Assembly (NCBI GenBank): GCA_965178125.1
Contig: OZ237736.1
Span: 930,001 to 994,000 of the forward strand
DNA from: Bilabrum cf. latius
Taxonomy: Eukaryota
DNA: 64,000 nucleotides
Direction: 5' to 3'
The notes beneath the pieces were generated by a model. The model saw only the letters and a program-made list of their open reading frames with translations. It was not told where the DNA came from and made no database searches. Positions 3,101 to 59,400 of this stretch are shown here, piece after piece. The position numbers were made by a program, and so were the translations under genes. The number at the start of each line of letters is the position of its first letter. Positions within the stretch are counted from its first letter, which is position 1.

Positions 3101-3470
3101 GGGCGGTAGCGAAGGATCAGAGACAGCTTCCACTGGTCCTGGAAAACAAGCTGAAATTAGCGCGAGGCTTATTGACAACAGTGCAAAGCTGTCCGCGCTA
3201 CAGGGCATGCTATCCGAAGCAAACACCGCCTAGTAGAGCCGCGCCTCGGGCGGAGCCCAGCGAGCCGCTGTGGATTCGGATGAAGATGACGACGAGGACG
3301 AGGACGAGGTCGAGGATAGTACGAGAGATCGAGAAGCTAGCTAGCGAATGCAGTAGCGATATGAAGATTTCGATGCATATAGCCCTCTGGTGCACACTGC
3401 TGCTGGAGAGGGCAGCAGCAGCAGCTCTGCTGGCGTAGGACCGTCTTCAAGACAGTATGAGGAGCTTTAA
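138..3470 (+). CDS. XPC: XPC/Rad4 DNA damage recognition protein (~1,110 aa, TAG read as Gln)
   Basis: Track ORFs 138, 660, 1005, 1641, 2466 and 2928 share one frame and are separated only by TAG (about 14). Rad4 motifs: WWVEV..WVFVDP, LTDVTRRYA, YALEGQL, VPKNDFGNVELW, RWEKLVHKALLRSRL. Ends ..QYEEL-TAA. Confidence 0.93.
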
Positions 3471-3555
3471 TGCATTTGTGGCAGAGTGGTTGACCATCGT
3501 GCTAGTTGGAATGGATGTTTGCCGTGTTCCACGCTGCCCAGTCAGAGACAGAGGT

Positions 3556-4902: not shown

Positions 4903-4994
4903 GTGCTTGCAAGAGCAAGTCTATGCAGTAATACTGCAATTGTTCGGCGACTTGTGCAGTTGCAGTAGGGACGTGTCGTTTTTCGTTTTCTTCC

Positions 4995-7900
4995 TCACTT
5001 TACGGGCGGCGGTCTCAAGCACCCAGCGTCGATCAAAGCGGCTTGCAGTCTGTCTGACTGTCTTTGCAGTACCCTAGCAAAGCCCTGGGTCGGCGGTTGC
5101 GGCAAAATGGCCCCGAGAGCCGCCACATCGTCGGCTGCACTGACAGGCTCTCGGCTAGACGGCCACGCGCCCTCCACCATAGCAGAGGCACCCAGCAGAC
5201 AAGCACCGGCAGCATCTCCCTTCGACTTCCCTTCGGAAGCAGTAGTATCTGCCGCCGCCTCGCTGCTGTTGACACCGGCCCCAGCTCCACCGCCGACGCT
5301 CGTTTCCCCAGTCAGTGCAAGCAGCCCCTGCAGCATGCCAAGAAGCCTGGCCCCGTGGACCGCATAGTGGGCCCTTACAAGAGCCTCCATTCCCCCTGGG
5401 GGTTTCTTGAGGGCACCAATCGCCTGCGTGACCGCTACCACCACCGAGTTCTCGTTGTAAAGCAGTGCCTGCCGCGCGTGCCCGGGCATGTCCTCGCAGC
5501 CCTCGAGCCCTGGCTCGCTGAAGTACGGCAGTCTGCTCCCGAGCAAGAGGCCCTACAGGCTGACTGCCACCTGCAGTATCGACGACTTGCCCGGCTACCA
5601 CCCCTCGCCCGTGGACCCCTCTCCCGTCTCCCAGGTACCAAGCAGACTGAGGCACACCTTGCCCGAGCCCTATTCGTACAGGTTCGGGTGGCCCCGCTCG
5701 CCGGAGAAAGACCGGAAGTGCACGAACGGCGGCCGAGACGGGAAATCGACGGGCGACATGAGCACGTCGAAGAAATGCAGCACGTGTGCACAGGGGCTGC
5801 ACGCCGGCCCCGCAATCGCAAGGCGAAGCAGAGCGATGTCCTCTGCGTAATGGCATGCGTACACGCCGGGAGGCAGCTCCGATCGCAGGATCTGCAGCTC
5901 CCGCTTGATCGCCCGAGCGAATCGCGGGTTGCTGCTCGCGGTCCGCATGCTGTGCGACCGCCATAAGGGGGGTCCTCCCGACTCCATCCCGCCTGCATGG
6001 AAATCGCCCGGTATCTTGTCAAGTGCGAGCAACTGGCTGTCGCGGAAGCCAGAACAGGCACGAATTTCACTTATAGCTGCCTGCATTGCCACGCCGTGCT
6101 TGTAAGTTGTAGTCGGCGAGGCAATCGAACTTGCCGCATCGCTCCCATTCGACACGTCTTCGGCGGGATCGGCCCCGGCCGAGGTCGAACCCGACGAGGC
6201 ACCATCTCGGATAGCCACCCCTAGATCAACGAGAGGATGCACACTGCTGCGCTCGCAGGGCTTGGCGTCTGGCCAGGCGTCCGATGCTGCCCCACTCGAG
6301 GCCTGTGGCTGAGGCGGCAGCAGATCCCCTGCCTGCTAGCTGCCTGCCTCGCCGCCGTCGGAACTCTCACTGCCACCTTTGGCAGACTCTCCCAGCAACT
6401 TCTCCAGGAGCGTGCGAAAAGATGCAAGTGAATCAGATGCACTATCCGCCAGATCACCGCCCTTGCCGTCTGGGGGCTATTTTGATCTTGAGGCTGCGAT
6501 GCCGGATCGCTGGCCGAGAGCAAACACTGCAGCAAGTCCATCCGCTGACAAGACACCAGTATGCAGCATTCGAGATGCCACTATCGCATGCTGTTTGTCA
6601 TCTTCTGAATCGACCTTCTTCAGATGTACGGGCAGGGTAGCCTCCAAAAGTCGGCTGGCGTGTCCCTCACAAGATTTTCCGGAGCCAGACGCGGGACTAG
6701 AGACTTCTCCAGCGCCAGTGATAGGTCCAGCATGTGATGAGAGAAGCTGTGGAGGACGAACCAGAGGCATGCGCATCCCAGCACCCGCCGCCGCTGAGGC
6801 TGACCCTCCCGGGAAAGACATCGCCTCACCCGTTCCTCCTCGCTGCATCCCCTAGAGTCTCACCATGCTGTCAGAGATCTGCGCGGCCTGCTCTCGGGAC
6901 AGCTGAGCCCCGGCCTGCTGCAGAGCGGCCTCGACTGCGGCACGGGCCCTGTCCGGGTCACTGCCATCGACATCGATCGTGATCAACTGCGCACTGGCTG
7001 CGCTGCCGGGCGGTGCCTCCTTGGGGTCGCTGACCGGAGCATCCCCCTGGTCACCGAGATTGTGCAGTTGGAACGGGTGCGTCTTCGAATAGGAGCCATC
7101 GGACCAGCACACGAGAAGCATGCCGTCCGCGCACGTGCGGCGAACTTCACCGAAAATGACGCGCTGAGTCGAGCCCCCTGCCGATGCATCGCCTTTTAGG
7201 CCGTCCGATCCTTCCCTACTGCTGCTGCTACTAGACGCTGGGCGCGCTTCGCCGTCCCCTGCCCCGCTGGAGGGGTCCGTTCCGTGGCCCGGGGGGTCGG
7301 GATCTATCTCTTTCCCACCAGCAGACCCACAGCTGCCCTCATCGCCACCCAGTCGAGCCACCACATCAGACACTCTGAAATTGAGCGTGCGACACAGCAC
7401 TAGATCGTACATGCTCTCTTCGGCATCTGCCCCCCCAGCTGTGGTCCGTTCCAATGGATCCATACCTCCGGCGAAAGAACCAATCTCTAGCTCTTTTTCA
7501 AAGGCAGCCATTTTTCCTCCAACTTCATCCTTGATGCGCTATTCTGGGGCATCTGCGGGTGCCGGCATCCAGTAGACCTGCACGGTGCGCTTGGCATCGT
7601 TGCAGCTCTGCACCACTCCTAGTCTTGATTTGCGAGCCCCACCATCCTCGGAGCTCTCCTCCCTGGGCTGCACGTAGTCTCCGGGCAGCAGCGTCTGGTC
7701 TCCCATCATGTACTCTGGCAGCAGCGCAAGGAGCACGGCGGGCACGGCTTTGGACATGGTCCCGTCTGACCACACCACGTCTACTTTCGACTTGACTTGG
7801 TGCACAAGCACAGCAGCCGACCGCCGATCGAAAGCGACGGGGAACTCAGGCAGGCCCGTGGTGCTGCCTGCCTCTCCAGAAGCATCGCTGTCGCTGCCGT

Positions 7901-9099
7901 CATCTTTCGCTCCAAGCTGGTCCGCTCCAGTGGGCGACGAGTTGCTGGCGCCGCTTGGCGCTGGCGGGCCACTGCCCGCAGCGGAGGCGCCTGCCCCAGC
8001 CCCAGCCCCAGCCCCAGCCCCCACGGAGGTACCTGCGTCCTTGCGTGCCTTGACCCGCTAGGCTGCTGCAACTCCAGAGGGTGTCAGCAGACCAGGAGCC
8101 CCGTACGTCCAGCATATTCCCCGCGGGTCGCGATAGGTCAGCCTATGCAGCTTGGGGTCATCGACAGGGATGACCGGAGGAGGCGGGCCAGCCTCTGTGG
8201 GCGCGAGACTCTGCTGCCAACTGACCATGATATTGGCGGCTCTGGTGCCAATGCAGACTCCTACCTTGTGCTTGTGCCTAGAGTAGGATCCTTTCATCCA
8301 CCTAGCAGAGCGGAGGACCTGCGCGGGGGCGCGGACGGGGCAACCCGCCGTAATGTCGTCGAAATCACCAGACTCGATCTGGAGCCGCTGCTCGTCCTGA
8401 GGCCGAATCGTGCAAACGCTGCCGTCGTCAAAGCCAATCGTGGTCTCTGCCTCCCATGAATCCACCTAGCCGACCCAGCTATCGTAGCATACGACCTGGG
8501 ATTGAATCCAGCCGTCTTGGCCCATGTCGGCGTGCTCGTGCGGCACCCAGGCCAGATCGGCATCCCGCCGGTGCACCGCTTCGAATTGAACCCCAAGAGA
8601 CTGGTGTATAGCAACCACCCTTCCAATTTGATTCAGGAGGGGGTCCTGCCCCTGTTGCTTCGCTACCTACACGTAGTCCCCAGGCATGAATCGCCTGTCT
8701 AGAACGGAGATGTTTTGCGCTTCAACGACAGAGAGCTGATCTGGGTCATCAAATCCGTACTCCTGCGGGGCAACATAACCACTCAGCTCGACGAGCCCCT
8801 ATCCGAGCGCTGGTAGATCGTCGTGGCTTGGTTCCGAGTGGCGGTGGTGTTCACTAAAGCGAGAAGTGTGCTGCGAGTGTGTGAGATGCATTCCTTGCGA
8901 GGAGCAGTACAGAGCCTTAAGGATTTCAAACTTCTACAAGACAACGGCCGTTTCTTCTCACACCCTGCATCCGAACGATAGTGTGGCAATCCAAGTCATC
9001 ATCTCTGCCACAGAGCACGGTGTCTCCGAGATACATGCCACAAACCGAATGGTCGCCCTCATCCAGTTTTCTTCGAGATTCGTGTATAATCTTCTCCAT
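4995..9099 (-). CDS. UBE2O: UBE2O/UBC23-like E2/E3 hybrid ubiquitin-conjugating enzyme
   Basis: N-terminal VLDRRFMPGDYV motif. C-terminal UBC domain HPNLYE*GSGKVCLSLLGTW..ILQVAVSL*GLLL..PYFSEPG with the catalytic Cys. One intron (8961-8871), about 11 in-frame TAGs, TGA stop. Confidence 0.88.
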
Positions 9100-9771
9100 G
9101 ACTCGAGATTGCACGGATTATCTTCCCATACAACGCACAATAGGCCGCAGTTGCCTTAAAATACAGAGATACAGAAATACATTGTTGGGTAAAGATTCCA
9201 TGAACACCCAGATGCACCGTTGCCCCCGAGGGGGTTTGGGTGATCACCTAGATCCAGAGGAGCCCTAAAAACAAAGGACTACAAGACCCCCGGCCCTTTC
9301 AGGCCAAAGGCCCCCCGTTCTCAGCCTATGCCGCCGAGTTCCCATTCTTCGCCATCAGTGTGGTCCCCCACAGGCCCCCAGCCTGTTGCCTTCACAAGGA
9401 GAAAGCATACAGGTGCGGAGCGTGTGCCCGGCACAAGGCGCGGTCCAGTCCCACATCGGGGTCCCCGGTCGAGACCCACCATTTCCTCCTCCATGACCGT
9501 CTCTGCGTCTCACGATCCTTCAGAGAGGCGAGCATGCACGCGCTCATGCCTTTGGCCCATTGCCTCTCTATATCCTTTAGCAAGCCGTGGGGCTTGAAAA
9601 TCCGTCGCTGTAGTCGGGCGTTCGCATTGGTTGCCGCTATCAGCTCCTGCGTGGCCGTGGCGGCTAAGGCAGCCGCCGCATCACCCTGCCTTTCCAATTT
9701 CGGAAGTGGCGTGCGCTTATTGGTCGGCCCAAAAACAAGAGTCTTGGCTGCCGTTGATGCGTTCACTGACC

Positions 9772-11724: not shown

Positions 11725-13506
11725 ATGTCAATGAAAAGGCAAATGGAAGTCATGACAAAAGTCCGGTAGGATGCTGAAGATTTGTCGGGGTTCATGCGAG
11801 ACTTGGAGCAGTGGCACAAAAAGGTTCGAAAACAGGATGATGCTCTCAGGCAATCAACCAGGACCAAGATGCCAATTCGCACTAAGATCAGTAAATCAAA
11901 CGTGCGCTAGCTAGATGTGTCGCCCCTTCAGCCATCGGAGGGCACCGCTGCTGACCACACGCACCAGAAGTATAGCAAGTGGGAAAGGTTCGACCCGGTA
12001 AGTTCGGATGAGCAGCCGAAATGCCTGCAATCGCTACAAAGTTGATACGTCCAGCACTCTTTGTATCATTAAGCGCCGTCGCAGGAGACAGCTGAATCAG
12101 AGTCTAGGGAGGTCTTCAACACGACCGCTGCCGGTGCTGCTCCTGCCAGACTGACGCCAGCCTCAATAGCATACCTTCCTCCGGAAGCAGTAGGATCTAT
12201 TCCGAAACCCAGCGATAGCACATCTAAAGCAACGATACGATCTGGGGCGTCTAACCCCGTACTGGACCAGGCAGAGATCGAGCGGGAGCGCGGCAACGAG
12301 AGCTTCAGGAAAGGCCAGTTTGATTCCGCCTTGCGAGCGTATTCGAGGGCAATCGGGATGAATCCACTTGACTTTAGGGCATTGAGCAATCGATCCATGG
12401 CTCATTTGAAGCTCAAGAACACACAGGCAGCAGAAGACGATGCCACTGCTGCACTCGCGATCGACAGCACCCACGTCAAGTCGCTCTACCGCAGGGGGGT
12501 CGCCCGAGTAGCACTTGGTCGACTGCGGGACGCAATTGTAGACTTTTAGGACGCGCTACGTCTAGATCCCGCCAACAAGCCAGCAAAGGCGGAGCTCAAC
12601 AAGTGTATCGAGCAGCGGAGGACCGCCGTGAGACGAGCACCGAAGCAACTGCTCGCCGGCGGCACAATCGCTCTGGACGCGTTCACACAGGCAGGTACCG
12701 CCAACTCTGCCAAGGAGGAATATGATCCCGCAATGTCCTCCCAAGAGGTTCCGCATACCTCGGAGGCACGAATCGCAGCTACTGCCTCGGAACCAGCTGA
12801 GCCGCAACAGCCGACTGAGCGAGCAAGCAGTGCGGTGCAATTGCCCGGTTCCTTAGCCAGCGAAGCAGGTGCTATAAGTAGCAAACGTAGAGCGCTTGCC
12901 CGCGACACAGACCAAAGGCCACCGCCCGCCGTAGCTTCCAGCAGCAGATCCAGCCCTCCTGTGTCACCACATGCGAAGCGGGCATTGCCTTCAACGGCTA
13001 CTACATTTGAGACGCTGTGGCGATCAATTGAAGACGAAGCCAGAGGGGCAGTGGGTGCAGCTGGGGATGCTTCGAAGATATCCGGCTCTGCAGCAGCTGG
13101 AGGTGCATCCGATGCCTCGGCCGCAGATAGCGTGCGAGGGTAGCGGCAGGCGCTCTTGCTTCGACTGGGCCCAAAGAAGTTCGGAAGATTGTATTCGGCC
13201 GTCGCCCCGGAGGCGGGTTTGCTCGGTGCAGTTGCATGCTGCGCGTTTCAGGCAGTTTAGGTGCTGCTGCGGACTTCTGGAGGAGACAAAGCAGCACAAA
13301 GGATGTCGCAGTGGCTTGGAGTGCTTGCGTCGCTGCCTAATAGATCGACCATATCGATGATGATGCCTACTGAGCTTAAGGCTGCAATGAAGTAGGGCAT
13401 AGTGCGCGCTAGAGACGAGATTGTGCCGAGAGCTACCACAGGTGCAACTGCAACCAAGCTAGGCAAGGCTTGTGAGGCGTTCATCCAGGTTTTCTCACTC
13501 GATTGA
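11725..13506 (+). CDS. RPAP3: RPAP3/Tah1-like TPR co-chaperone
   Basis: N-terminal VR*DAEDLSGFMRDLEQW matches RPAP3 VKQNAEELQDFMRDLENW. TPR motifs ERERGNESFRKG..SNRSMAHLKL..KSLYRRG, and an RPAP3_C-like tail. Intron 11998-12084, 6 TAGs, TGA stop. Confidence 0.85.
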
Positions 13507-14943: not shown

Positions 14944-17900
14944 TCACAGTGTCCCGTTCAGGATGGCTCGCACTGTCGCATCAGCAGCCTGAGCCTCCGC
15001 CTCAGAGTAGTCGTGCTCGTCTCCAGTTCCCTCTGCCCACCAACGCTTGAGGTTCTGCTGGGTCTCTGAAGGGAGTTGCTTGAAGTTCAGTGGTGCTGGT
15101 TGTTTGTCCCGGCTGCCTCTGCCCCCGGCAGACCCGCTTCCAGCCCCGCTTGCCGGCCCGTCTGGGATTTCCGACACACTTGCAACATGTGCAGCCCCGT
15201 TGCTCCTGGCCTAGAGACCAGCTCGTACCCATGTCCAATGTCCAGATCCCCACGCCTTCAGAGGCTCCTGCTCCTTACCTTCGGAACTCTTGGATACTGC
15301 GTCTGCGATCTCGGGCATGATCGCACCCGCTTCAGAGCTAGGCAGCAAGATGCCCCAACCCCTCCTAGCCCCGTTCCTGGCCAGCTCGCCTAGATGGCTC
15401 GGCAACTGCATGTTGCACACTGGACAAGAGCCTTTCATTAGCAACCATGGATCCACGCATCGGGAATGCAAGTTGTGGCCGCAAGGCAACGAGCGGCACA
15501 CGTGGTTCGGCAGCTAGGCCTCCATGCACACCGCACAGCTGGGCCCGTCTTCATCCTCGTCGTCCGATTCGTCTTCAATACCTGGCGGTACGCCCTGGCT
15601 GTGCCCATGACTGTCGCAAGATTCTCCCACTGGTGGCGGCTGGGCCGTGCCCTGTGCCTTGGATGGATCTGCTGCAAGCGATTCCGATTTCGACCCCTCC
15701 GCTGTTGTCTAGTCCTGGTCAAGAGGATGAGCCTGATATCGCAGTCGACCCCCCTTGGACCTGCACGGGCGGCGCCACAGAGGCAGCGCATCCACCACAC
15801 CGGGCTCTGCACCGTTCGAGTACGAGTGCTGGAACACGGTCCCGGTCAGCGACGATGAGTGTACCAGAGCCTGCAGCAGGCCAGCGCCCTGCGCGCCTTC
15901 CTCCAAGCCACCGAACCCGCCCGCATCAACACCGTTTGATTCACTATCATTAACGCCCTCGCCGCCCTCGCTCTCTCCTTTTGGATCTGCAGTAGCCCCG
16001 CCTGCCCCAGACCCGCTACCTGTGCCCGCCTCCTGGCCCGAGCCCTCGCGCTCTGCCCGAGTTCGAAACCCGCTGCGGCGCGGCGCATGCGTCGCTAGCG
16101 CGCTGGCTTCTACCTCAGCACCATAGCCGTTCTCCTCTCGCATTGCTTGCCTCCTTGCGGCGGTGTCTCGCGTGCAACGGTCGCCAATGCGCTGCATGAG
16201 CCTTTGCGAGTCCACGCCGTCTTCTTCGTCGATCTGTGCCTGCAGAGCAGCGGCGAAAGCAGCGTCCTCATCTTCTTGCTGCTTAGCCTTGAGTTCGGCT
16301 TCAGACTGCTGTTCTGATTCAGCTGCACCACTTGCTTCTTCTACTTGCGGAGATGCTGGATCATCTTTGATTCTCTCTGCTGAAGCCCGAGCAGCTGGCC
16401 TCCCTTCAGCTACAGTTCGGATTCCAACGCTTCTGCGGTGACTGCCATGGGATTTCTTCTTTGGCTTATCTCGCGGGCGCCTGGATTCGATCACAGACAC
16501 AGCCTGTGCCACCATCTCGAGAGAGCCGCCTGACCTGGCCATCTGTCGTAGGACGCGGCGGATGAGCCCCCGTGGGACTCTGAAGAAGCTCTGCTTGAGG
16601 TTATCCACCACCTAGTCCTCTCTCTGCCGCCTCTGTGCCCTGGCTCTAACTAGCATACTCACACCCGCCCCAGAAGCTGCAGAGTCCTCTGCATTGCCTG
16701 CCAGAGGGTGCCAAGCGTCCTCGGCCTCTACGTCCATCTCGTCTGATCCTGGTGCAGCTCTCAGCGTTCCGTCAAGGCCATCGTCCTCCCCAGATGCGGA
16801 TCCACGCCGCCACGGTCTCATTATCGTGTCCATGTCGACTCCAAGGGCACACAAGATATCAGTGGCTGAGCTTGCATCACAACCCCTGGCATCCACCGGC
16901 AAGTGCGCGGCCAAGGCAGCTCTCAGGCCTCCCACTGGCCACTCTGGGCACCCGACCGAAGTGCTAATTGCATGCGACACGGTCGACATTGCAGCACTTG
17001 AGCCCAATGCTTGTTTCTAACAAAGATCCTCTTCGTCCCCAGCTGGTACCTCGAGGTGGCCCGCGTGCTCCCACCACCACCGGCCTGCACCGCTCACGTC
17101 CCACCCACCCTTCAGCTGCCACCCCTTGTTGTTGCAATGCGATGGAGTATCAACCGCAAGTTTCTGGGCAGATGCAAGCTAGCCCGTGACATCTGCAGGG
17201 TGAGTCGTGCCGCTCGCGAGCCCAATAGCTGGTGCATCGAGCGGTATGCGAGCACCGCATGCGTGGCACGACTGGCACATGCCCTGCGCTCCTCTAGAAC
17301 TAGTGCCCAACCTCCCTGCCACCCAGACATGCGCCAAACCATTAGTTGACGCGTCGCCTGCGCCTCCAAATTCACTATTAAGAGCTATTGATGCCACTGC
17401 ATCCGCGCGATTGGCAGGCGGGCGGCAAGACGATAGTGCCATGTCCGCAACTTGGCCAGCTCCCATTGCGCGCCCTTGACCAGCCTTGTGGAGTAAGTCT
17501 GCCTTGACGGTGCTCGACCACGCTTCTTCATCGGGTACGGGCATCGCTGGAGGCTACACCTTGACAGTCGCCGTGACGCCGCCTTTAACGCAGATACTGT
17601 CACGTTGCACTGCAAGTGCTTCCCTGCTATCGTCACCGTGAACTGTCGATGGTACTGCCAAACTGTGGCTCGCAATGCCGAATGCCTTCTCTATGCTCTC
17701 AATGCCCAGCTGTACCTTAGAATGTGTATCAATGCCATCACCGGCACATCCTCTCTTGGTCTTGTCTCGACTGCTTGCTTGCAACCTCGACGATAGGCTG
17801 CTAGGACCCTTGTTCTGGTGCGAATCGCTGTCTTCGTCTGTTGACTGGAAATTGCAAAGATGCTGCTCAAGTATCTCAGTCATCGCCGAACAATCGGGAT

Positions 17901-20900: not shown

Positions 20901-23001
20901 GCGCCCGACCAAGAGAGCCTCCCTGCATTTTGTCCGACTCGTCGTCGACTCTACAAGAATCACGTGCCGTTGCAGCAGTAAGCGATTGCTGCAGCAGCTA
21001 TCCAGGCTCTGGCAGCTCAATGGATTGCATCCATTTCGGCACTTGGCTGCACATGAGCCGGACCGCCTCAGATGACTCTGACCTCGCCTCTCCCTCGCCC
21101 ACGATGGACACGACGCGCTGCCTCTTTGGCCTTGCCTTCTCCCCGGAGCTCGCAAGCAAAAAAGCAACGAGCTTGCTCGCAGCAGCTGCAGAGACGGCCA
21201 GATGCTCCCTTGGTTCGAAGGCTTGCTTGGCCTGTGCAACGCGCCGCTTCCTGCTGGACGCCCGGCCAGCCGCTGAGGTGGCTCTGCTCGCCTGCTACTT
21301 CCATAGGGCGCTAGGATCGTAGGTGCCGCCACCCTTGGCCTTTGTTTCAGCCGATGGCAGGTCAGAATAATCCAAGGCAGCTCGGACCATGAGATCGACA
21401 ATGGCGGGTTCCTGAAAGCTGGCCTCAACGTTGCTATCCTGCCAGCCCGGCGTCTCCAGTAGAGCAACCGCGTCCGAAGGACCGCACATGACCCTCGCTG
21501 CCCATTCAATGTCGTCCAATGTAGACTCCTCCTGTCTCGCAGCGCAGCCAACAGTAGCACCAGCGTCCGCCCCTCGCGAGAGCCATGGCACACGGGCCCC
21601 GGCCACCGCGCTGGCTCGCAGGCTCTGCCTCGCGACAGACCCGAGCGACTTCGCCATGGAGACGCGCATGCACCTTCTCGACACCCGAAGGAGCCCGGCC
21701 GCAAAGGCAACGCTGTGGCTTACGGAGGGCGACAGAAGCAGTGTCACCCCCAAATACAAGCTACCCCCTGACTCTTCACACATGTGCTAAGTGTGGGCGC
21801 CCCACACAGCAAGACGACGGGCATACGACGAGACTGCAGCCAGGATCAGACCAGCCGAGGGCGGCAGAGCTGTGTCTGCGTCTCCGCTTCCCAGTTCATC
21901 TACGACACCAGATATAGGGTCCTATGGGTGGGGAGCTGAGGCCGACTTGTCGCTCCCCGCAGCAGTGGATTGCTCGCTCCGTCCTGTGGCACCAGAAGCA
22001 GCAGCCGCCGCGACCGGAAAGTCACGTGACGATTGTACCGCTTCTGATCTCACCGCGTCGAGCGGTCCCTCGAGAGGAGATGCACCGCTTGCGCTTCTAC
22101 ACCGTGCAGCATACCCGCAATCAAGCACTGACCACAGGGCCACTCTTCTTCCATGCGAACCGTCGCCCTGTCCCAACAAGCCCGATCCTCCACCTGCACC
22201 TGCACCTGCATGCCCTGCACCTGCTAGGGATCCACCCGATTTCTCCGAGCCGACAGAAGCGTCACTCTAGCTGCTTGTCCTGGTTTCGGCAACCCCACCC
22301 GTCCCTCCGTCACCGCTTGACGTGTGCTCCCTTGCAGCTGGTTGCGCAGATGCCCTGTGCGCGGCTAGGCGAGCGAGCCCAGTGAGCATCATCCAGAGCA
22401 CGCCCTCGGCTGCGGCCACGGCGCTACCCGCGCCCTTCTTGCCCCCGCTGCGTTTCATCCATTTCATGCTTCCAGCAACGGCGGGTGACCTTGGCGGAGT
22501 GGCCGGCGGTGGCTCGTCGATTGCAGACGCTGCGGCTGCGGCTTTCGATCTCAGCGGCACCGTTGATGTACCCCCGGCCTGGGCAGCAAGACTTGCACTT
22601 CCCCCCAAATCTGTTTTTCTCCATGCTTCTTTTGCTTCCAGACTGGTCTCAAGCTCCCTATAGCTTCCTGTCGGGTGTAAACTAGCACTAGCTGCTGCAA
22701 CCAGTAGCATGGATGCCTCTAGCGATGGAACTAGCATTCCCTAAGACACAAATCGCATCCCATGCTGCCTCGCTATATCGTATTCTTCCACTGATACTGT
22801 TCGAAGTGTCATGCTAGGATGTGATGCTAAGCTTTGTGCCGCTGACTCTGACGGCTTCGCTGACCGAACACCAGGTACGGCGCTGCTGCTTTGCCCAGCA
22901 GTGTCTGGCAGGCGACTTGCCCTCCTCACTCTTGGTCCAGAAGCTTTTGGCTTGCTAGCAACTGCAGGTTCGCCTGACATCCACGATAAAAGGGATGACA
23001 T
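14944..23001 (-). CDS. Giant (~2,685 aa) protein with C-terminal RING-H2 finger and possible CUE-like domain; putative E3 ligase
   Basis: Consecutive track ORFs from 22737 down to 15177 share one frame. The gaps were read and contain only TAG (about 14). RING motif CAVC..LPCGHNLHSRCVDPWL..CPVC. TGA stop at 14944. Confidence 0.8.
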
Positions 23002-23712: not shown

Positions 23713-26700
23713 TCAGGCCAGCACGATCGAAAACCGATACTTATAGGTCGTCTCATGCTTTCCAGGCACCGTTCGGTCAAGTGAACCGATCCACTGCGGG
23801 TAATTCGTACTCCAGATGTTGTTCCACAAGTTGTACCCCGCCCCTTCCGCCGCGATCCGAGCTCCATCATCTGCCTACAGAGGCAGCGGAAACATTGTCA
23901 TATTGCCCGCCACGGCCACATTCGCATCCAGCGAAGCCACGCCGATCCTTGGAGCTCCTTTGCTGCTTGGAGGAAGCGGTGCCATGAGGCGCGTGCCGCC
24001 CGAGCGGAGAGCATCCCGGGTAGTCACTGCGTACTCGAGCGCCGGATCGCTGTAGCCTGCGCCCCAACCCCCATCAGACCGCTTGAACGGCCCAGACGAC
24101 CGAGTGCTGTTGCTCGACTCCGTGCCGGGGGACGGCCATACGCCCTTGGTGGCTGCAATCCCGCTCTGCGTGACGTGGTACTCGTTGTTCCCCGCGATGA
24201 CGACGTCGGCCGGCTCCATCCACTCCCCGATGGTGTGGTACCTCCACCTAGACACGGTCGAGCTGTTCGGGGACGGGCCTAGGTCCGGGTTGAACCTGAC
24301 GAACATGGCTTCGGGCAGCCTACTAATCGTCTTGTTGATCGTTGTGACATCTAGGGGCATCTCCACGGCGGAGGCTGCCGCGCTGCTTGCAGCTCCCCAC
24401 CTCGCGACAGGATCGTTCTTCTCAGCGCTGGATGCAGTGAGGCCAGAGAGGCGCCCCGCTGCACCTCGCGGGCGAACTGAAGCCGCGTCTAGCGCGGCAC
24501 CATCTTTGAGCACGACGCTGTCGGCGTGGTGGTGCGGCGAAGGCGACGCATCCGCGGGCTGCCAGAGAGCAATCTCTGACACCTCGGGCGCACCGTTGTT
24601 GGCGTGTGGGTCTGCCTGCCCGGGCCCTGGCTGGAACCTTACCCGAAGAACCACAGCGGGTGATGCGTGTGACGAATCGTCTGGCAGGCGAATCCAAGCC
24701 GACTCAAGCTCAGTTCCGTACCTCTCATGCGATGCCGTCTCGTTGGGCTTGCCGAAGTCCTTGTACATGTAGCTCGGGGGAGGGTCCGGCTTGCGCGAGT
24801 CGTATTCGCTCAAGAATGCCACGAAGTCTGCCTCAGAGTAGGTACGATAGTCAAGGTAGGCGAGCGGGCGTGAGGCCGAGGCCCAGGACTGCCCCGTGGC
24901 GCTGTCGTCGAACGTGGTGATGTGCCCAGTCTTGCTGTCCCACTTGACGGTGACTCGAGCAGCGGCCAGCTAAATGCCACCGACGTTACTGGTACGGGCC
25001 AGCTTCAGCCACCTGCGACCCAAATGATCCTGCACGGTGGCAGCTCCATCGATGCCGCGTACATCACGCCCAGCACCACCGCGACCTTCTGCTTCGCCAG
25101 GGGCAGCCATGGGGTCACCGCGTGTCGCAAGGTGCTCCATGCTCTGCAGTGATACGGCTGCCGGCTCCAGCTTCTTCCATTCGCTCGTGATGTTGCTCAG
25201 CAGATCGAGAGCCACCTGGTCCTTGTCGGCAGCAGGCACCCACGCCTGACGCAGAGCATCCATGGGGTAGTACAGATCAAAGTTCCTCTGCTCCTGCCAG
25301 GACTCAATCATCGTGATCCAGTTGGGCAGCCCTTGGTCAATGCAGGCGAACACCTGATCGTTGGTCCAGTTCTGATAGTCCTTAAGCCAGGTCTTCACGT
25401 CCTTGCCATCGGTATGCTCGATCAGCTTGATGAACAACCGAGTAAAATTGCCGACCGCGGGGCCGAGCGCATCCGTGACGTCGTGCAAGGAGGGGTCAGA
25501 GGCACCGGCGCTTCTCATCGAGTCGGCTTTGTCCGCCACGGCCGCTGCGTACTATCTCATGACCACTCGACCCATCGCCTGCTTCAGAGGGTCGCTGGCG
25601 ACGCCGTGAGACCACGTCTCGTCAATCTCCTGTTCCAGCACGGGCAGCTTGTCGCGGACGCCATCCAACAGTGCGACAAAGTCGTCAAATTCGGCAGTGA
25701 CCACCTCAGTGCCTGGGAATGTCTTCTGTATGTCAGCGTACGTGGAGAGTACTTCGGCCACGCTCTCAGCGGGCCCTTGGTTGTCCCCTCTCCAATAAAA
25801 GACCAGGGCAGTATCCAGCCCCGGGACCACGACCGCGTCCGAGGTACCATATCCACCGTACCCATGGGAGTGCCACAGCGCCAGAATGTCCTCTTTGCTG
25901 GCGGGGTCCCGCCACACGAAGGCACGAGGCACGGCAGGGGCGGAGGACCCATCGTTGGCACCGACAGAGAAGGCCTTCACGCCCCTGTTTGCCAGCAGCG
26001 GGATGATGGCAGCGCGTGGAATACCGGGGACGTCTCTCTGAGACAAAGTGGCTTTCGGCGGGAGGCTGAATTGCTTGTCGATGTCGTGCGTCCAGTCGGT
26101 GCCGGTGGCCAGGAGCACGGGGTCCGCGATTCCGAGCTCGCTGTTGAACGGGTGAGCGTGCCACGTGAGATATCCTTTTGCGATGCTGTCTTTGAATTGA
26201 AGCAGCTCTGTCGCGCTTGGGCATGCAATTCCCATGCCTGCCGGGCAATCTAGGTACAAGCTGACCAACCAGCTCTGTGTCATAAAGTTCATCCGGGGCT
26301 CTGCCTTTCCCCGCTGCCGCAGCTCTTCTCCAATTGTCCAGGCCCTTGGGAAATGCTATGTGAACCAAAGATTGATGATGTTCACGGTAGAGTTTAAAAA
26401 GCCAGCATCGAAGTGCGATGCTTGCACGACCATAACCTTCTTCAACGGAGTTGCCTTGTACGACGGATACGTGCATCCTGCTGTGCTGTTTTCGCGGGAT
26501 GGATCAAAACAGCAACGCTTAGACTGACATTCTGCTTCCGATGGGTATAAGCTGGTGTACGTTGACGGTCCACACCAAACTCTGCTGCTCGCATCAGGCA
26601 CAAGATCGCAGGTTGCCTGCGCACGTGCATCCACAGGATCAGCCGCACATGCGGCGAGACACAGTAGAAATGAACACTTCAGTCGAGAGATCTGCTTCAT
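23713..26700 (-). CDS. Secreted trefoil (P-type) + DUF5054/GH38-N-like glycoside hydrolase-like protein
   Basis: Signal-peptide-like N-terminus, then trefoil C..RVWCG..EAECQSKRCCFD..C. Core motifs SHFDAGF, TWHAHPFN, DVPG, EIDETWSHGVASDP, IEHTDGKD. The terminal NLWNNIWSTNYPQW..YRF motif lies after the last TAG. 4 TAGs, TGA stop. Confidence 0.82.
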
Positions 26701-45500: not shown

Positions 45501-46483
45501 GCCTCCTCACCAGAGCCGCGTCGTTGTCCGTGTACCCCTTCCTCCTGCTGGACCTCTTCTCCGAATGCTCCCTGAGGGCTGCGACCTTCGCGGCCGTGAC
45601 AGACAGTGGGAGTTCGTGCTTCTTTCGTTTGCTGCCGCCAGCGCCAGCGCCCCCTTCTGCAGCTGTCCCATCGGAGGCCGGGGCGTCGTCGATGCCGCCC
45701 GGTCTGGCGGTGGGGTCGTCCGTGGCCTCCTCGACCATCTTGAACACGTGCTTCGGGTCCAACAGCCTGGGGTCGATCTTGTCGGGCTTGATGTATCCCC
45801 GGCACACCACGAAAATCTCCGCAGACACGTTTCTCGACGAGTGGGGCTTCGTTGCGTCCACCCTGCGGAACAGCTTGTTGAGGACCCACAGGATGGCGTG
45901 GTAGTCGCTCGAGCGGAACACCTTCGTGACGAATGCCCCACCTCGGCGCAGAATGTCCACTGCGAGTCCAAGCGAATAAATTACCAGCTCAGACTGCGAA
46001 TAAGCGTCCTTTGCCCAATCGGCTCCGACGTTTGGGGCTCCGTCGTGCAGAACGACGTCTGCCATAGCTCCACCTAGATCCTTCTTGAGGAGCTAGCGAG
46101 CTCTAGGCGTGGTAATGTCCTCTTGATGCGCAATCACATTTCGAATCGGCTTGATTGGCATCAAATCCATCCCGACAATGGTGCTGCCTTGCGGCATGTG
46201 CCGAGCTGCAACCTGCAGCCATCCTCCCGGAGCCGCGCAAAGATCAACGAGACACCGTGCACTTTCGAGCAACTAGAAGCGCTTGTTGATTTGGATTAGC
46301 TTGAAAGCAGATCGGGCGCGGTATCCCTGCGGTGGTCAACAGCTGAGGTGCAACTGCAAGCGCGGGTCTTCTTGGCTCAATTACGATGGATAATGAGCGT
46401 TATGGCAGTGTTCTTACCGTTTCTCGAGCTAACTAGTAATACTTATCCTTTCTCCTAAGCTTTCCACTCGTTTTCTTGGGCAT
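42538..46483 (-). CDS. SPB1: SPB1/FTSJ3 pre-rRNA 2'-O-methyltransferase
   Basis: Motifs [54 protein letters not shown] and the Spb1_C tail [10 protein letters not shown]. Intron 46417-46327, 4 TAGs, TGA stop. Confidence 0.95.
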
Positions 46484-51588: not shown

Positions 51589-54500
51589 ATGGCTCGTCCA
51601 ATGGCGAGAAGGATGATGATGGCTACGGCAGGACGCGCGACAGCAGATGGAAAGAATTCAGGCCCCCCTGCTGCTGCAGGAGATTCGCAGAGTGATAAGC
51701 ACGGTTATCGATCTCCATCAACACTAGGTCGAAACAGGGGCAGGAATGGTATGACATCCATTGGCTCGTTCAAGATGGGTGGTGGTAGCTCAACGCATCA
51801 GCCCAGCAGAATTTGTGGCGGGAGTTCGTCCTCAGCCAACATGTCCCATGCTCATCCTGGCTTGCACGCTCGTAGAAAGAGTATAACTGAGCTAGTTGGA
51901 CCGGCAAGTGCCAGTAATGCGCGTGCTGGCCCTTCGTGGAATGGTGGTTCTAATCAGGTTGGAGGGGCAGTCCATCGGTCGGCTCAATCGCTTGGGTTAC
52001 CGGTCGATGTTCTAGAGCAAGCCGCTTTATAGCAATCCAAGTACATGTCTGGTGCGCTTGCTAGAGTAAGTCCCGAGTATCGAGCAAGCAGCAGACCACA
52101 AGAGTCTGCTCGGCACAAAGCAACAAGCTTACTTGATCGATTCAGGGAGGCCGCGTAGCAAGTGCAGCAGCGAGTTCACTCTGCCAAGGATGAACACGGT
52201 ATTGATATTGATAATGCTGCCGATATGGCGGCGCAATGGCACGCCTACCGGGTGCTGCGCCGGTTTCTGCTGAGGATGGTCAGGTTCAAGCGGCGCATCC
52301 AGGAGAAGGAAAGGTCGTTTGCCGGGAAAAAGCTTGCGGAAATATGCTGCTACCTCTTCTTCTTGTTGTTCTTTTCGCTTAGTACGATCGTTGTTGCCCA
52401 GGATCAGGCAGTGCTGCACCAAGGGAACCAGATCCGCCGAGAGCTCAACAAGGAGTACACCCCGTACGTCGGTGCCGAGCCGACCAAGCTTGAGGACATG
52501 GTCACCTCCGTCGAGATGTTTGCTTGGCTGCAAGGCCCATTCCTCAACACATTTTATGGTCCCCCGAACGACCTCTTGTAGTCTGTAGATGACGCTTGGG
52601 GTGCCACGCTAGATCCCAATTTCACTTGCTTGGCAACAGCCGACGGGCAGAGCCAGACAGACGGCGACTTGTCTGGAGTGAGTGAATCCGGAGTCTTCAC
52701 TACGCAGTGTCCCGGGTAGACATTCAATGCTCTCGGAAGCTCGCTAGAATCTCGCCCTGGGCTTGTGTTCGGCACCTCGAAGGTAGTCGGGGGTATTCGA
52801 GTCGCCCAGCTGCGAGTCACAGACCAAGGCGGGGATTGTGTAGATACGTACGGCTTCAGATTGGGAGATCGAGAGAGAGCACCCCCTTGCGTGGGTGACA
52901 ATGGCGGTTGGAGCTCGGATGAGGAGAGCTCCGAAAGCTTTGGCCTGATGAACACGACCGTGTACCGATACCCGGGCCCTGGGCGCCCGTTCGAATTTGG
53001 GGGGGTGCGGCAGAACCAATCCCTCATGAGTGTCTCCGTGCAAGATGAGCGCGCAATCCCTATCAACGGCATGCGAACCACAGCGACGCACAGCTTCTAC
53101 CCCACGCCTGCCTTCCCAGTGATACTGCCGAATAACGGCGCTGAAGAGGCTCAGAGACTGCTGCGATGGATCCAAGAGGCAAGGTACTTTGACGAGCAGA
53201 CCAAGGTGCTGAGTCTGCACGCCACTCTGTACAATGCATAGCTGGACTACTTCACGGTCGTGGCGATTCATTTCGAGCAGCCCAAATCAGGTGGAGTCCT
53301 GCCGTCGCTGGACTGGACGACTATTCGCCTATTCACCTACTTTGACTCTAGGGAGGTGCACTTCAGGATAGCTGAGGGAATCGTTGCTGCGTTCTACGTG
53401 TACTTTTTCCTCCAGGAGATTGCAAAGGTGTGGGTGTACGGCCTGGAGCATCTGCTGTCCTTTTCAGCTGTGTTCCACAACCTCAACATCATTATTTACC
53501 TGGCCGTGTGGATCTTTCGTTTCATGTCGGTGCAGGCTGCACCCGACGAGTCAACCATCGTAATGGATAGCGACAACTACTACGAGTTTCGAAGCGCGGC
53601 TAACTTGAAGTACATTTCGGTGCTGCTGAATTCCATCAATGCCTTCCTGGCATGGTTCAAGTTGATTCGCTACTTGAGCTTGATTCCCATTTTTGCCCTC
53701 ATCACTGGGACATTGGCCAAGTCTGCAGGGCCGGTGTTTTCATTTATTTTCGTGTTTATGATCGTTGTCGGCGGATTCTCTGCGGCTCACTTGCTAGCTT
53801 TTGGCACGAAGCTTGAGAGCTTCAGAAACCTGACCACGAGCTCGTTCAGCTTGCTGCAGTCGCTGTTGGGCGACTTTAATTTCACCGAGATGCGCAGGGC
53901 GCAGTGGTTCTTGGCACCAACACTCTTCGTGTCATTTGTCGCGATTAGTGCTTTCTTCTTGCTCAACCTGCTGATCGCCACCGTGGCTGAGGCTTATGGT
54001 GAGATGAATGAGCAGCTCAAGAACGACCCAAACAGCCTCACCCAGGGGCAGAGGATCTACGAGTACGTGCTAGAACTGCTCGCTACAGTGCCTGGCTTGG
54101 ACTGCTGTCTCGAATCGTGCAGCACGACGTGGCGTCGCATGCAGCGCGATAGGGCCAACAGTGCTTTGAGGCGGATGTACGAAGGGACAGCAGGTCGTGC
54201 CATCGCACTGTCACAGCTGGTGGATGCAATGGATGGCAAAGTGTCGCGGGGTCCCGCCGCAGCAAAACACTCTGGTAGCAAAGGCGCCGTGGTACCAACA
54301 AGCGAAGGCACACCCTTGGGCAAGGAAGAGGGTGCGACGGGGCTGGTAGCTGGAGCCTCTCAAGATGGTGATGACCTGCAGCACCATCAATCACAGAGGA
54401 ACAGGGCGTTACAGGCAGCTGCTATGGGACTAGGCAAATTCGTTGCAATTGGCAGGAGCGCAGCATCTACGATGGACCTCACTGAAAACCGCGTGCACAC

Positions 54501-56433: not shown

Positions 56434-59400
56434 TCAGTCGCTGTCAAGCTCACTGTCGTCGTCGTCGTAGACACCCCCAACACTCTCGGCCTGAGTCTCA
56501 GTCCCAGACTCCTCCGAGTCATGACCTTCGATGATTCCACCGAGCGCCTTCTTGATCGCAGCCTCGTGCTTCTTGCGCTCCTCCTCCACGTGCTTTTCTC
56601 GAAGCCTCTGCCTCACCTCGCGCTGCAAAGCTCGGACACTGCGGAGCTCCATTGCCTTCTTCTTGCGGTATAGAAGCACGCTACGGGATTCAACGCCATC
56701 CATGGCCCCATTTACTTGCCGCTTTGTCTGTCGCAGCTCATCGCGCTCCTTTTCCATCTTGAATTGGGCCGCTCTGCGGTTCTGCTCTTTGATCCTGCGT
56801 GGTAGCTGGCGTCGGTCGAATTCATACGTCCTCTACCGCTCAGACTTGCGTCGTTTTACCGCCAGCAGCATGGCGTCTCGCTGCTGATTCATGGCTTCTG
56901 ACCCGCACGCGATCAACAGCGCCCTGGTGGCCTGCTCTCTTGCTGTGAGCTCGCTGTAGACGGGTGGCACCCCGCTGCGCTTGATTTCCACGTAGAACTC
57001 TGCCACAAGCGGTGCTAGCCGTGGGTCCCATGCTGCTCGCGCGACTCCCTGCAGGGTTGCCTGGGGATGCTTCTACTGGCAACGCTTCCGGACAGCATCA
57101 ACGAACTGTCGAACGTTGAGCTTGCCGTCCATGTGGTCTCCACCGTTCCTCGCCCACTCCTCGCAGGCGTGGTGGAGGAAAGCCGCCCGGAGCATCGCGA
57201 AATCCAGCACCTCTCCTATGCTGTATCCGTTCTAAAACCCTTGCTGATTGAATCGCTTGTCCTTCGAAAACAGCACGTCGTGGTCCATAATGGTGCCACC
57301 ACTGGCACCCTGGGCCTTGGCACGGCTAGAGTGCAGGTCGGACTGAGGCCACTTCGCCTTGGAGCCCTGAAAAGACTTGTTTTCGGACTGCGTCCCGCCA
57401 CCATCAACACCATCCAACTGCAACCTGGGGACATCGTGTGAGTGATGAGACGCTCCACTTGTGCTCTCGCCGAACCAGCCCTAAGCGAAGCCCGCTGCCT
57501 CCCCATGCCCGCCTGCTTGCTCAATCTGTGGTCCCTCCGGCTCGGGTGCGTACTAGTCTTCTGCTGCAAGTGCTGGCGGTCCCGAAGCAGTCGGACCAGC
57601 ACCGCTGTCTGCCACTCGAGTGTCAAGTCCGACTCCGAATGAGTGTGTCCGCACACCATGCACCGGTGCTGGCAGGTGCCGCTTCATCACTGTGAATGCG
57701 TCTGTCCGCACAGCCTCTGCAGCTCGAATGTGGGCACGCGTCATTGGAGACATGGAAGCCAGCCGCTTTCGATCGATCCGTGGTGCTTCCACGGTCTCGG
57801 CTCGTTTTGAAGATCCAGTATGAATCGGGGGAAGAGCACCCGAATGGGCTGTTGGCGACCCAGTTCTGGCTAGAGCATCTGCCACGAGGGCAGTTCCGGG
57901 TCTGCTCCTGCTCCTCGCACTTTGCGCAGATCGTATTGTGCGCGCCTCCTCCGCTTCATCACTACCTGGTTCCAGCAGTGCATGCACTGCCCACTCATCT
58001 TGAACCGCGTCAGGAGACAGGCGGGTGAACCACGCCACGATGCCAGACTCCCGAGGCTCCAACGGGAGATTGGACGGGTGATCCAGCGGCTCTCCTGGCC
58101 TTGGCTTTCCTACCCCACCGAGTCGGTCATTGATTCGCTTGCCCCACGTGACGAGGTCTGGGTGCTTGCCTGCAGCTGCGAGCTGCCCCATGCGGGTGTC
58201 CTCTCTCTCCATTTGGCTTCGCTCATACTCTGCTCGATCGCGCTCGGCCTCTTCCTGCATTTTGTGTTTCCTTTCTCTGTCCTGGTCAATACGACGCTTG
58301 AGCTGCAGCAGGTAGGGCACTGCTTGTCCCTTTCGGCTGAGTCTCTCACCGAGGGCATCCCCGCCGGTGATGTCCTTGGTCGACCACTTACCTGGTAGAT
58401 CGCTGAGGGGATTCCGGGCGCAGTCAAACGAATCAAGTCGATTCGCCAACAGGGCGAACGTCACCGGAATTGACTGCGAGGCAGTAGCATAGTAGGAAGA
58501 AGGCATTATGCGTAGCGAAAGCAAAATGTGGGATCAGCGTGCTGCAATCAGAGCCTCGTTGCCTTACCTTGATCTGGTTGTTGTAAAGGTTAAGGTTGCG
58601 CAGGGACAGAGATTCCCCGAGCGCGTCCGGGATGTACTTGATGCAGTTACAGGAAAGGTCCAATGTCTTGAGACACGGCAATGCTCCGACTGCCCCGTCG
58701 ACTGCCCCGATGCGGTTGGAGCTCATGAGCAGCTCAACCATGCTGTCGCACGTCGCCAGAATCGAGCCGAGCTCCTTGAAGCTGTTGTGGTTCAGATTCA
58801 AGTGCTCCAGTCTAGCCATCTCTGCGAGTTGGTCAGGCACCTTGTCGATCTAGTTGTAGGACAGGTCCATGAATCTGAGCTCATGCATGGCACCAATAGA
58901 GATCGGAATAGCGGGCTGGTGCTTGTCGGATCCCAGCCGGTTGTGGGACACCCGCAAGTGGACTAGCTTCTGCATGGCTGCCAGGTCCGCTGGAAGGCAA
59001 ACCAAGCGGTTGTGATCAACGTCCAGGGTTTGCAAGTCAAGTAGCTTGCCGAGCCCGCGCGGCAGTAGCTACAGCTGGTTGTGCTTTGCCGTCAGCTTTA
59101 GCAACGCAGCACACCCGCCGATAGACTCGGGGATGCTGTCGAGGTTGTTGCTGTCCAGATTGAGACTTCGAAGGCTGACCATGTGACCAATCATGACTGG
59201 AAGCGACCGGATTCGATTGGAGGACACGTCAAGAGATTGCAGCCTTCTGCAACGGCCGAGGGAACCGGGCAGGGCGACCAAGTCGTTGTTGGCGGCTCGA
59301 AGATCTGCGAGTCCCACGCATCGACCAAGCCTGCTTGGAAGCTTTGAAAGCTTGTTCCAACTTACCCAGAGCTTTACCAGCCCTGTCATTGTCTTGCAAC

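What the first reader, a model, noticed from the sequence alone, without database searches (positions are those of the whole stretch)
5553..5672. The amino acid encoded by UAG is most likely glutamine
Seen, compared with recalled family consensus. UBE2O ILQVAVSL*GL (TAG 5555-5553) sits at the near-invariant Q of LQVLxSIQ[GS]L. SPB1 NKRF*LL (46275) and RAR*LLKK (46095) match FTSJ3 NRRFQFL and RCRQALRK. RPAP3 VR*DAED (11767) matches VKQNAEE. LRR LSYN*I (58852) fits NQL/NQI, and Gfo GCG*RG (39259) fits GAGQRG. TAG also often neighbours CAG/CAA codons (39938, 46742, 52030, 52156, 56188, 59942). One site, RING CMEA*LP (15516), has an aromatic residue in many homologues and is not supportive.
Basis: partly seen in the sequence, partly recalled or inferred. 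Interest (0 to 1): 0.92.

Follow-up and report, generated by a model that had tools for sequence, protein, structure and literature searches.

The report
TAG codon read as glutamine
In this protist-like nuclear DNA the usual stop codon TAG sits inside many ordinary genes and is most likely read as glutamine, a rare but already known kind of genetic-code change, possibly seen here in a new lineage.

Summary
Confirmed. The window is eukaryotic nuclear DNA (58% GC, short GT..AG introns). Its genes are open only if TAG is a sense codon. The longest ORF is 683 aa under the standard code and 2721 aa with TAG read through; reading TAA through adds nothing. ORFs end in TGA (15) or TAA (4).

The span 5553-5672 holds three in-frame TAGs in the UBC domain of a UBE2O-like gene. 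The one at 5553-5555 lies in a column that is Q in 124 of 149 homologues.

Evidence for Gln:
- A ~91%-identical relative has Q at 2 of the 3 TAG sites its gene fragments cross, and L at the third. Its fragments stop exactly at three other TAG sites.
- The nearest homologue has Q at 5 of 18 TAG sites, against 2.0% at non-Q residues (P = 2e-5).
- An empirical likelihood puts Q 10.9 ln units above the next residue.

Column log-odds alone cannot separate Gln from Asn. No tRNA, eRF1 or whole genome could be examined.

This is TAG-only reassignment to Gln, as in NCBI table 15 (number recalled). The kind is known; the lineage may be new, since the best named match is Cafeteria. P(Gln) about 0.92.

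The parts
5553..5555 (-). TAG codon, UBE2O-like residue 1135, in the UBC-fold motif after the catalytic Cys
   Evidence: Column is Q in 124 of 149 homologues, L 19, H 3. It is Q in 4 of the 5 PDB UBE2O chains shown and M in one.
5595..5597 (-). TAG codon, UBE2O-like residue 1121
   Evidence: Variable polar column: N 35, S 32, T 25, D 23, Q 6 of 150. A hand-picked 50%-identical homologue, P0139, has Q; the rule-chosen nearest hit, P0208, has I.
5670..5672 (-). TAG codon, UBE2O-like residue 1096
   Evidence: Column is D 55, N 27, E 11, T 8 of 114. Polar, with no Q.
4995..8870 (-). Main exon of the UBE2O/UBC23-like gene, ending in TGA; intron at 8871-8961
   Evidence: Pfam tSH3-B_UBE2O, SH3-B, SH3-C and UQ_con. 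A contig of run X6 skips 8871-8961, CT..AC on the + strand.
8667..8669 (-). TAG codon, UBE2O-like residue 97
   Evidence: Close-relative fragments P0283 (93% identity) and P0133 have Q here.
8466..8468 (-). TAG codon, UBE2O-like residue 164
   Evidence: Close-relative fragments P0133 and P0283 have Q. The 46%-identical P0147 also has Q. Distant homologues have mostly R (47 of 80).
20998..21000 (-). TAG codon, residue 704 of the 2721-aa RING ORF
   Evidence: Close-relative fragment P0287 (89% identity) has L here, and the residue before it also differs. This is the one close-relative site against Gln.
46273..46275 (-). TAG codon, Spb1/FTSJ3 residue 21
   Evidence: Q in human FTSJ3. Among 120 homologues: S 37, A 31, N 26, D 10, Q 3.
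46093..46095 (-). TAG codon, Spb1/FTSJ3 residue 81
   Evidence: Q in human FTSJ3 and in Cafeteria P0001. Among 120 homologues: N 85, Q 11.
26356..26358 (-). TAG codon, DUF5054 protein residue 168
   Evidence: Nearest homologue P0121 and P0123 have Q; the others have T, S or K.
25552..25554 (-). TAG codon, DUF5054 protein residue 436
   Evidence: Nearest homologue P0121 has Q. The 12 homologues read L 6, Q 2, H 2, V 1, A 1.
11767..11769 (+). TAG codon in exon 1 of the RPAP3-like TPR gene
   Evidence: Human RPAP3 (6fo1_G) has Q at the aligned place. The exon is joined to 12084 in a spliced contig of run X6.
15514..15516 (-). TAG codon in the RING-H2 finger
   Evidence: Aligned with L of RNF165/ARK2C in all 5 alignments shown, which are variants of one protein. 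Does not support Gln.
53239..53241 (+). TAG codon in the polycystin domain of the PKD2-like channel
   Evidence: Aligned with N in PKD2L1 and PKD2. Does not support Gln.
58850..58852 (-). TAG codon at the N-x-I position of a leucine-rich repeat
   Evidence: The same position in the other 17 repeats is R 6, Q 3, S 2, C 2, L, K, D, N.

Best explanation
In the organism this window comes from, UAG is an ordinary sense codon for glutamine, while UAA and UGA still end genes. About 120 in-frame TAGs occur in roughly 18,400 codons. If TAG is Gln, that is about 14% of all Gln codons.

Shown here:
- TAG is in frame in conserved genes.
- It is kept in spliced transcript contigs.
- It aligns with Gln far more often than with any other residue.
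- A sister lineage about 9% diverged has in-frame stops at the same places and CAR (Gln) codons at others.

Inferred from how other UAG reassignments work, not seen here:
- UAG is decoded by a tRNA-Gln with anticodon CUA, one base away from the normal CUG.
- The release factor eRF1 has lost efficient UAG recognition but keeps UAA and UGA.
For: TAG is sense, and only TAG:
- ORF lengths and Pfam domains across TAGs.
- ORF ends are 15 TGA and 4 TAA.
- ORFs of up to 2721 aa are unbroken by TAA or TGA, although CAA (244) is about half as common as CAG (522).
- The Rad4 transcript contig ends 81 nt after its TAA.

TAG is not edited or spliced out:
- Contigs of run X6 lie on 140-3551, 4975-7979, 8029-9128 and 11704-13512 with 0 differences.
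- Two of them skip GT..AG introns. By my own count from the coordinates they cover 31 TAG codons.

Close relative (896 aligned residues, 91% identical):
- Window TAG sites crossed read Q, Q, L.
- Window Q is kept in 46 of 48 cases and L in 65 of 69.
- Three fragments on one 2761-nt contig end just before window TAGs at residues 300, 473 and 702.
- A fourth fragment ends just before a window CAG.

Nearest-homologue test: Q at 5 of 18 sites against a 2.0% background, P = 2.3e-5. Likelihood: Q best by 10.9 ln units.

Column tests:
- Log-odds on 13 columns: Q 0.73, N 0.27, all others at -8 ln or lower. Calibration was 95% correct overall and 93% for Q.
- Cross-entropy: Q best. Q was called falsely in 1 of 5,700 control draws.
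- Reverse test: P < 0.01 against C, D, F, K, L, N, P, V, W, Y.
Against: - One of three close-relative sites has L.
- Three of 18 nearest homologues have L and three have D.
- Raw column likelihood, without correction for residue abundance, ranks S > A > Q. That scheme also mis-% of true-Q control sets.
- Adding seven columns known only from PDB chains moves the log-odds to N by 2.6 ln units (RPAP3 Q, PKD N, Rad52 E/L, Rad4 E, K, L, RING L).
- The reverse test cannot exclude A, E, I, M or S.
- Enrichment of Q next to TAG is weak, P = 0.04-0.07.
- No tRNA gene is in the window, and no eRF1.
- No whole genome is held and there is no peptide evidence.
- Run X6 is labelled 'RNA? (probably DNA)'. 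Its cDNA nature rests on four intron-like joints.
Confidence: 0.92

Rival explanations
1. UAG encodes leucine, as reported for three uncultivated phyllopharyngean ciliates (abstract and introduction of PMC11687900) and, from recall, for Rhizaria sp. exLh.
For: - Close relative has L at RING residue 704.
- L in RNF165 at the RING-finger site.
- L in 19 of 149 at the UBC column and in 6 of 12 at DUF5054 residue 436.
- Nearest homologue is L at 3 of 18 sites.
Against: - Close relative has Q at two sites, while window L stays L in 65 of 69 cases and is never Q.
- 0 TAG in 101 majority-L columns against 4.9 expected, P = 0.006.
- L is -16.8 ln units in the nearest-homologue likelihood, -11.2 in the raw column score, below -13.5 in the 13-column log-odds and -17.3 with 20 columns.
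- Most TAG columns are polar.
Confidence: 0.03
2. UAG encodes another polar residue: Asn, Ser, Glu or Ala.
For: - N is second in the 13-column log-odds (0.27) and first once 7 PDB-only columns are added.
- S and A lead the uncorrected likelihood.
- The reverse test does not exclude A, E or S.
- N is conserved at the PKD site.
Against: - The UBC column has 0 N, S, E or A among 149.
- The close relative has Q at two sites. Under this reading that needs two specific replacements in a 91%-identical protein, whereas TAG to CAG is a single transition.
- Nearest-homologue likelihood: E -10.9, S -16.7, A -21.3, N -25.4.
- 0 TAG in 30 majority-N columns, P = 0.005.
- To my recollection no nuclear UAG to Asn, Ser or Ala code is known.
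Confidence: 0.03
3. UAG is glutamine inside genes but still terminates some genes (context-dependent dual use), or is decoded by near-cognate tRNA-Gln(CUG) without a dedicated tRNA.
For: - One unknown ORF has a TAG three codons before its TGA (ORF 26721-29732).
- TAG density is lowest in the most conserved genes, as expected for a poorly decoded codon.
Against: - All 19 long ORFs run on to a TGA or TAA, though ORFs were defined that way.
- 0.66% of codons in essential genes such as Spb1 and Rad52 is far above any natural read-through level (established knowledge).
- A TAG within three codons of an ORF end is expected by chance in about a third of 20-gene sets (my estimate from the frequency).
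Confidence: 0.1

Closest known systems
UAG-only reassignment to Gln with UAA and UGA as stops: Iotanema spirale (PMC5304391, search listing and start of abstract only), the ciliates Hartmannula sinica and Trochilia petrani (PMC11687900, abstract and introduction read), and the code filed as NCBI table 15 (number recalled; 'genetic code 15' = TAG to Gln is named in the abstract of PMC9523058)
   Same: Only TAG is a sense codon and it aligns with Gln. TAA and TGA end genes. TAG is in wide use across many genes.
   Different: The host lineage is neither a ciliate nor a fornicate. The best named match of one gene is the stramenopile Cafeteria roenbergensis (72%; sister in a single-gene tree with support 0.59). 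TGA is the main stop here (15 of 19), whereas UAA is the preferred stop in the phyllopharyngeans (PMC11687900 abstract). The tRNA and eRF1 were not seen here.
UAR (UAA and UAG) to Gln codes of many ciliates, hexamitid diplomonads, some green algae and Amoeboaphelidium (NCBI table 6; taxa recalled, ciliates from the PMC11687900 introduction)
   Same: A stop codon is captured by glutamine, presumably through a mutated tRNA-Gln anticodon.
   Different: TAA is not a sense codon here. Reading it through lengthens no long ORF, and ORFs of up to 2721 aa hold no TAA.
UAG to Leu codes (uncultivated phyllopharyngean ciliates, PMC11687900; Rhizaria sp. exLh, recalled)
   Same: UAG alone is reassigned and UAA kept as a stop.
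   Different: The residue: Leu is rejected here.

Membership tests
UAG-only Gln code (NCBI table 15 type) | TAG occurs in frame inside conserved protein-coding genes | tested here: met
   122 in-frame TAGs in 20 stop-to-stop ORFs; a few at ORF edges lie in introns. Pfam domains run across them.
UAG-only Gln code (NCBI table 15 type) | TAG positions correspond to glutamine in homologues | tested here: met
   Q at 2 of 3 close-relative sites. Nearest homologue Q at 5 of 18, P = 2.3e-5. Q best by 10.9 ln units. UBC column Q in 124 of 149. Caveat: column log-odds with PDB-only columns prefers N.
UAG-only Gln code (NCBI table 15 type) | TAA and TGA remain terminators | tested here: met
   ORF ends are 15 TGA and 4 TAA. 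TAA read-through adds no long ORF. Spb1 ends 8 residues after its C-terminal domain. The Rad4 transcript contig ends 81 nt after its TAA.
UAG-only Gln code (NCBI table 15 type) | A tRNA with anticodon CUA carrying Gln identity | not testable with these tools
   No tRNA gene in the 64 kb (ARAGORN, Rfam). No whole genome is held.
UAG-only Gln code (NCBI table 15 type) | eRF1 altered so that UAG is not read as stop | not testable with these tools
   No eRF1 gene among the window's ORFs.
UAR to Gln code (NCBI table 6 type) | TAA is also a sense codon | tested here: not met
   TAA read-through leaves the longest ORFs unchanged. Four ORFs end in TAA.
UAG to Leu code | TAG positions correspond to leucine | tested here: not met
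   0 of 101 majority-L columns hold TAG, P = 0.006. L is -16.8 ln units.
Codes with all three stops reassigned or context-dependent (Condylostoma, karyorelicts, Blastocrithidia) | TGA and TAA also occur in frame | tested here: not met
   TGA read-through raises the ORF total, as expected at 58% GC, but gives no ORF longer than 702 aa.

The most novel reading that the evidence does not exclude
This is the first nuclear stop-codon reassignment in a stramenopile: a bicosoecid-like relative of Cafeteria. It is a UAG-only change to Gln, shared by at least two lineages about 9% apart in DNA. These lineages turn up in sequencing runs filed under several other organisms' names. The clade would then be a GC-rich, nearly intron-free model for how UAG can be uncoupled from UAA outside ciliates.
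Probability: 0.4. Interest if true: 0.75.

Novelty: new member of a known kind. Interest (0 to 1): 0.62.

Why it matters
UAA and UAG nearly always change meaning together, and cases where only UAG is reassigned are few (introduction of PMC11687900). Another independent case, in a lineage far from ciliates and fornicates, would add a data point on how UAG can be uncoupled from UAA.

There is also a practical consequence. Gene callers using the standard code cut this organism's genes into fragments; the public protein collections already hold such fragments (P0133, P0134, P0185, P0287, P0288, P0289). Its genome and its relatives need to be annotated with TAG as Gln.

Five literature searches found no report of a nuclear UAG reassignment in stramenopiles. 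Subscription journals and supplements were not searched.

Tried and rejected

Searches with little or no yield:
- Read laying lists only 40 of 2,288 differences, so I could not tabulate which letters the ~91% relative has at the window's TAG codons. This would have been the decisive count.
- The search for related loci in metagenome contigs, with TAG-free residues 705-1299 of the RING ORF, found no relative.
- The 'shorter' protein search on the RING ORF gave only one relative fragment.
- Cluster look-ups of P0287-P0289 gave no further members.
- No RNA holder is listed for the stretch.
- The UBE2O top deep hits are plants and say nothing about taxonomy.

Tests that were too weak:
- PDB alignments are mostly copies of one or two proteins and add few independent columns.
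- The neighbour-composition profile of TAG was uninformative: F, M, Q and L lie within 2 ln units.
- Raw column likelihood (S > A > Q) was set aside because in calibration it mis-% of true-Q sets.

Readings rejected:
- RNA editing of TAG, and TAG lying in small introns, are rejected by the colinear, difference-free contigs of run X6.

Rows dropped:
- Close-relative fragments P0133, P0134 and P0185 were left out of the deep-column tallies.
- Columns with fewer than 8 aligned homologues were dropped.
- Domain hits under 40 aligned residues were ignored.

Full report
**What is at the coordinates**

On the minus strand, 5553-5672 lies in the UBC (ubiquitin-conjugating) domain of a 1320-codon stop-to-stop ORF, 4995-8957. 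The ORF carries the UBE2O-type SH3 domains and UQ_con. It holds three in-frame TAGs there: 5672-5670, 5597-5595 and 5555-5553.

**TAG is a sense codon, and only TAG**

- Under the standard code the longest ORF in the 64 kb is 683 aa. With TAG read through the longest are 2721, 1582, 1320, 1299 and 1265 aa.
- Residues in ORFs of 300 aa or more rise from 8,820 to 27,035.
- TAA read-through leaves the top lengths unchanged. TGA read-through gives nothing longer than 702 aa.
- The long ORFs carry Rad4, UBE2O, OGFOD2, Rad52, TPR, NUDIX, RING, DUF5054, GFO, Spb1/FtsJ, ion-channel, Asp/Asn-hydroxylase, polycystin and LRR domains.
- In 20 ORFs (about 18,400 codons) there are 122 TAG, 522 CAG and 244 CAA.
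- 15 ORFs end in TGA and 4 in TAA. A few TAGs at ORF edges lie in introns, for example UBE2O 'residue 8' inside intron 8871-8961.
- If TAA were also read as Gln, the 244 CAA codons would be expected to have yielded many TAA. Yet ORFs of up to 2721 aa hold none.

**TAG is kept in transcripts**

Run X6 gives contigs that match the window with 0 differences over 140-3551, 4975-7979, 8029-8870 joined to 8962-9128, and 11704-11996 joined to 12084-13512. The skipped pieces are 87-113 nt with GT..AG ends, so at least these contigs are spliced cDNA, although the run is labelled 'RNA? (probably DNA)'. By my count from the coordinates they cover 31 TAG codons. This excludes U-to-C editing and TAGs hidden in mini-introns.

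**Which amino acid: close relative**

The protein collections hold fragments of a relative that was gene-called with the standard code.

- The fragments are P0133/P0283 (92-93% identical), P0134/P0284 (89-90%), P0185/P0285 (97-99%) and P0287 (89%).
- Runs X9-X11 hold about 5% of the window's 31-mers and lie on all of 1-20000 at about 91% identity.
- Over 896 aligned residues, 814 are identical. Window Q is Q in 46 of 48 cases and window L is L in 65 of 69.
- The fragments cross three window TAGs. UBE2O residues 97 and 164 are Q in the relative; RING residue 704 is L, with the neighbouring residue also changed.
- Three fragments that lie on one 2761-nt contig end just before window TAGs at UBE2O residues 300, 473 and 702. 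The relative therefore has in-frame stops at the same places and shares the code.
- P0287 ends just before a window CAG. That fits TAG in the relative, but a contig end cannot be excluded.

**Which amino acid: deeper homologues**

I aligned 120 Spb1, 147 UBE2O and 12 DUF5054 homologues. This gave 13 TAG columns with at least 8 aligned sequences.

- The UBC column is Q in 124 of 149. The others are variable and mostly polar.
- Raw likelihood ranks S > A > Q. That scheme fails on 37% of true-Q control sets.
- Log-odds against residue abundance gives Q 0.73 and N 0.27. Its calibration is 95% correct over 300 draws of 13 columns per residue.
- Adding seven columns known only from one or two PDB proteins turns the log-odds to N by 2.6 ln units. 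This test alone therefore does not separate Gln from Asn.
- Mean share of Q in the column is 0.135 at TAG and 0.217 at our own Q codons. It is at most 0.056 elsewhere. The cross-entropy classifier calls Q, with 1 false Q call in 5,700 controls.
- TAG sits in 1 of 23 majority-Q columns, 0 of 101 majority-L (P = 0.006) and 0 of 30 majority-N (P = 0.005). A, E, I, M and S are not excluded by this test.
- With a fixed rule, the most identical hit covering each site has Q at 5 of 18 TAG sites. The others are D 3, L 3, A 2, and R, T, I, S, N 1 each. The Q rate is 73 of 3613 at our non-Q residues and 67 of 130 at our Q codons; P = 2.3e-5.
- An empirical likelihood, using the same tables binned by identity, gives Q 0, E -10.9, R -14.4, S -16.7, L -16.8 and N -25.4 ln units.

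- The Spb1 matches hold for human FTSJ3 but not for most homologues.
- Q next to TAG is only 1.5-fold enriched, P = 0.07.
- The RING site pairs with L and the polycystin site with N.
- The Gfo comparison was not tested.

**Mechanism**

The code itself is shown: TAG is Gln, and TAA and TGA are stops. How it is decoded is inferred from other UAG reassignments: a tRNA-Gln(CUA), which should not read UAA (PMC11687900 introduction), and an eRF1 that no longer reads UAG. Neither gene is in the window, and no genome is held.

**Who it is**

- The only taxonomic hint is Spb1. Its best named hit is Cafeteria roenbergensis at 72%. In a single-gene tree it is sister to the query with support 0.59, inside a clade of 9 with support 0.85.
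- The UBE2O deep hits are plants.
- The placement is tentative.

**Comparison and novelty**

- UAG-only reassignment to Gln is known from Iotanema spirale (PMC5304391, listing and abstract start) and from two phyllopharyngean ciliates (PMC11687900, abstract and introduction). It corresponds to NCBI table 15 (number recalled).
- This is therefore a new member of a known kind.
- Five literature searches found no report for stramenopiles. A sixth, on sense-codon TAG in heterotrophic flagellates, returned only unrelated papers. Supplements and subscription journals were not seen.

**Verdict**

P(Gln) is about 0.92. The remaining doubt is mainly Leu or another polar residue, and possible dual use of TAG.

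Noticed in passing
window 1-10000 (runs X1-X11): Near-identical DNA is held by runs filed under four different coded organism labels in four studies. A ~91%-identical relative is in runs labelled protist metagenome, algae metagenome and a fifth organism. The organism seems to travel with other cultures or samples.
   Followed up: partly
8871-8961 (-), about 9836-9930 (+), 11997-12083 (+), 13749-13861 (+): Short GT..AG introns of 87-113 nt are skipped by contigs of run X6. Several stop-to-stop ORF starts used here (UBE2O, TPR, NUDIX) therefore include intron sequence.
   Followed up: partly
9158-9697: This 540-nt intergenic segment between the UBE2O-like and Rad52 genes is absent from the relative's contigs in all three runs X9-X11. 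It is 58.5% GC. It is either an insertion here or a deletion there.
   Followed up: no
29825-30415 and 33924-34514; 31181-31322 and 33709-33849: A local duplication, 97.8% identical over 591 nt and 95% over 142 nt. It carries the tail of an unknown ORF. The in-frame TAG is kept in both copies (30311-30313, 34410-34412).
   Followed up: partly
whole window: TAG density is lowest in the most conserved genes (Spb1 3 in 1265 codons, GFO exon 0 in 331, ion channel 2 in 699). It is highest in low-complexity or unknown ORFs (31844-33499: 10 in 551; Rad4: 14 in 1114).
   Followed up: no
3278-3317: An acidic GAC/GAG-rich low-complexity stretch near the Rad4 C-terminus attracts many unrelated contigs, false joints and loose ends in all four runs.
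   Followed up: no
26721-29732 (+): This unknown ORF has a TAG three codons before its TGA. It is the only place in the window where TAG might itself be the terminator, and chance is a sufficient explanation.
   Followed up: no
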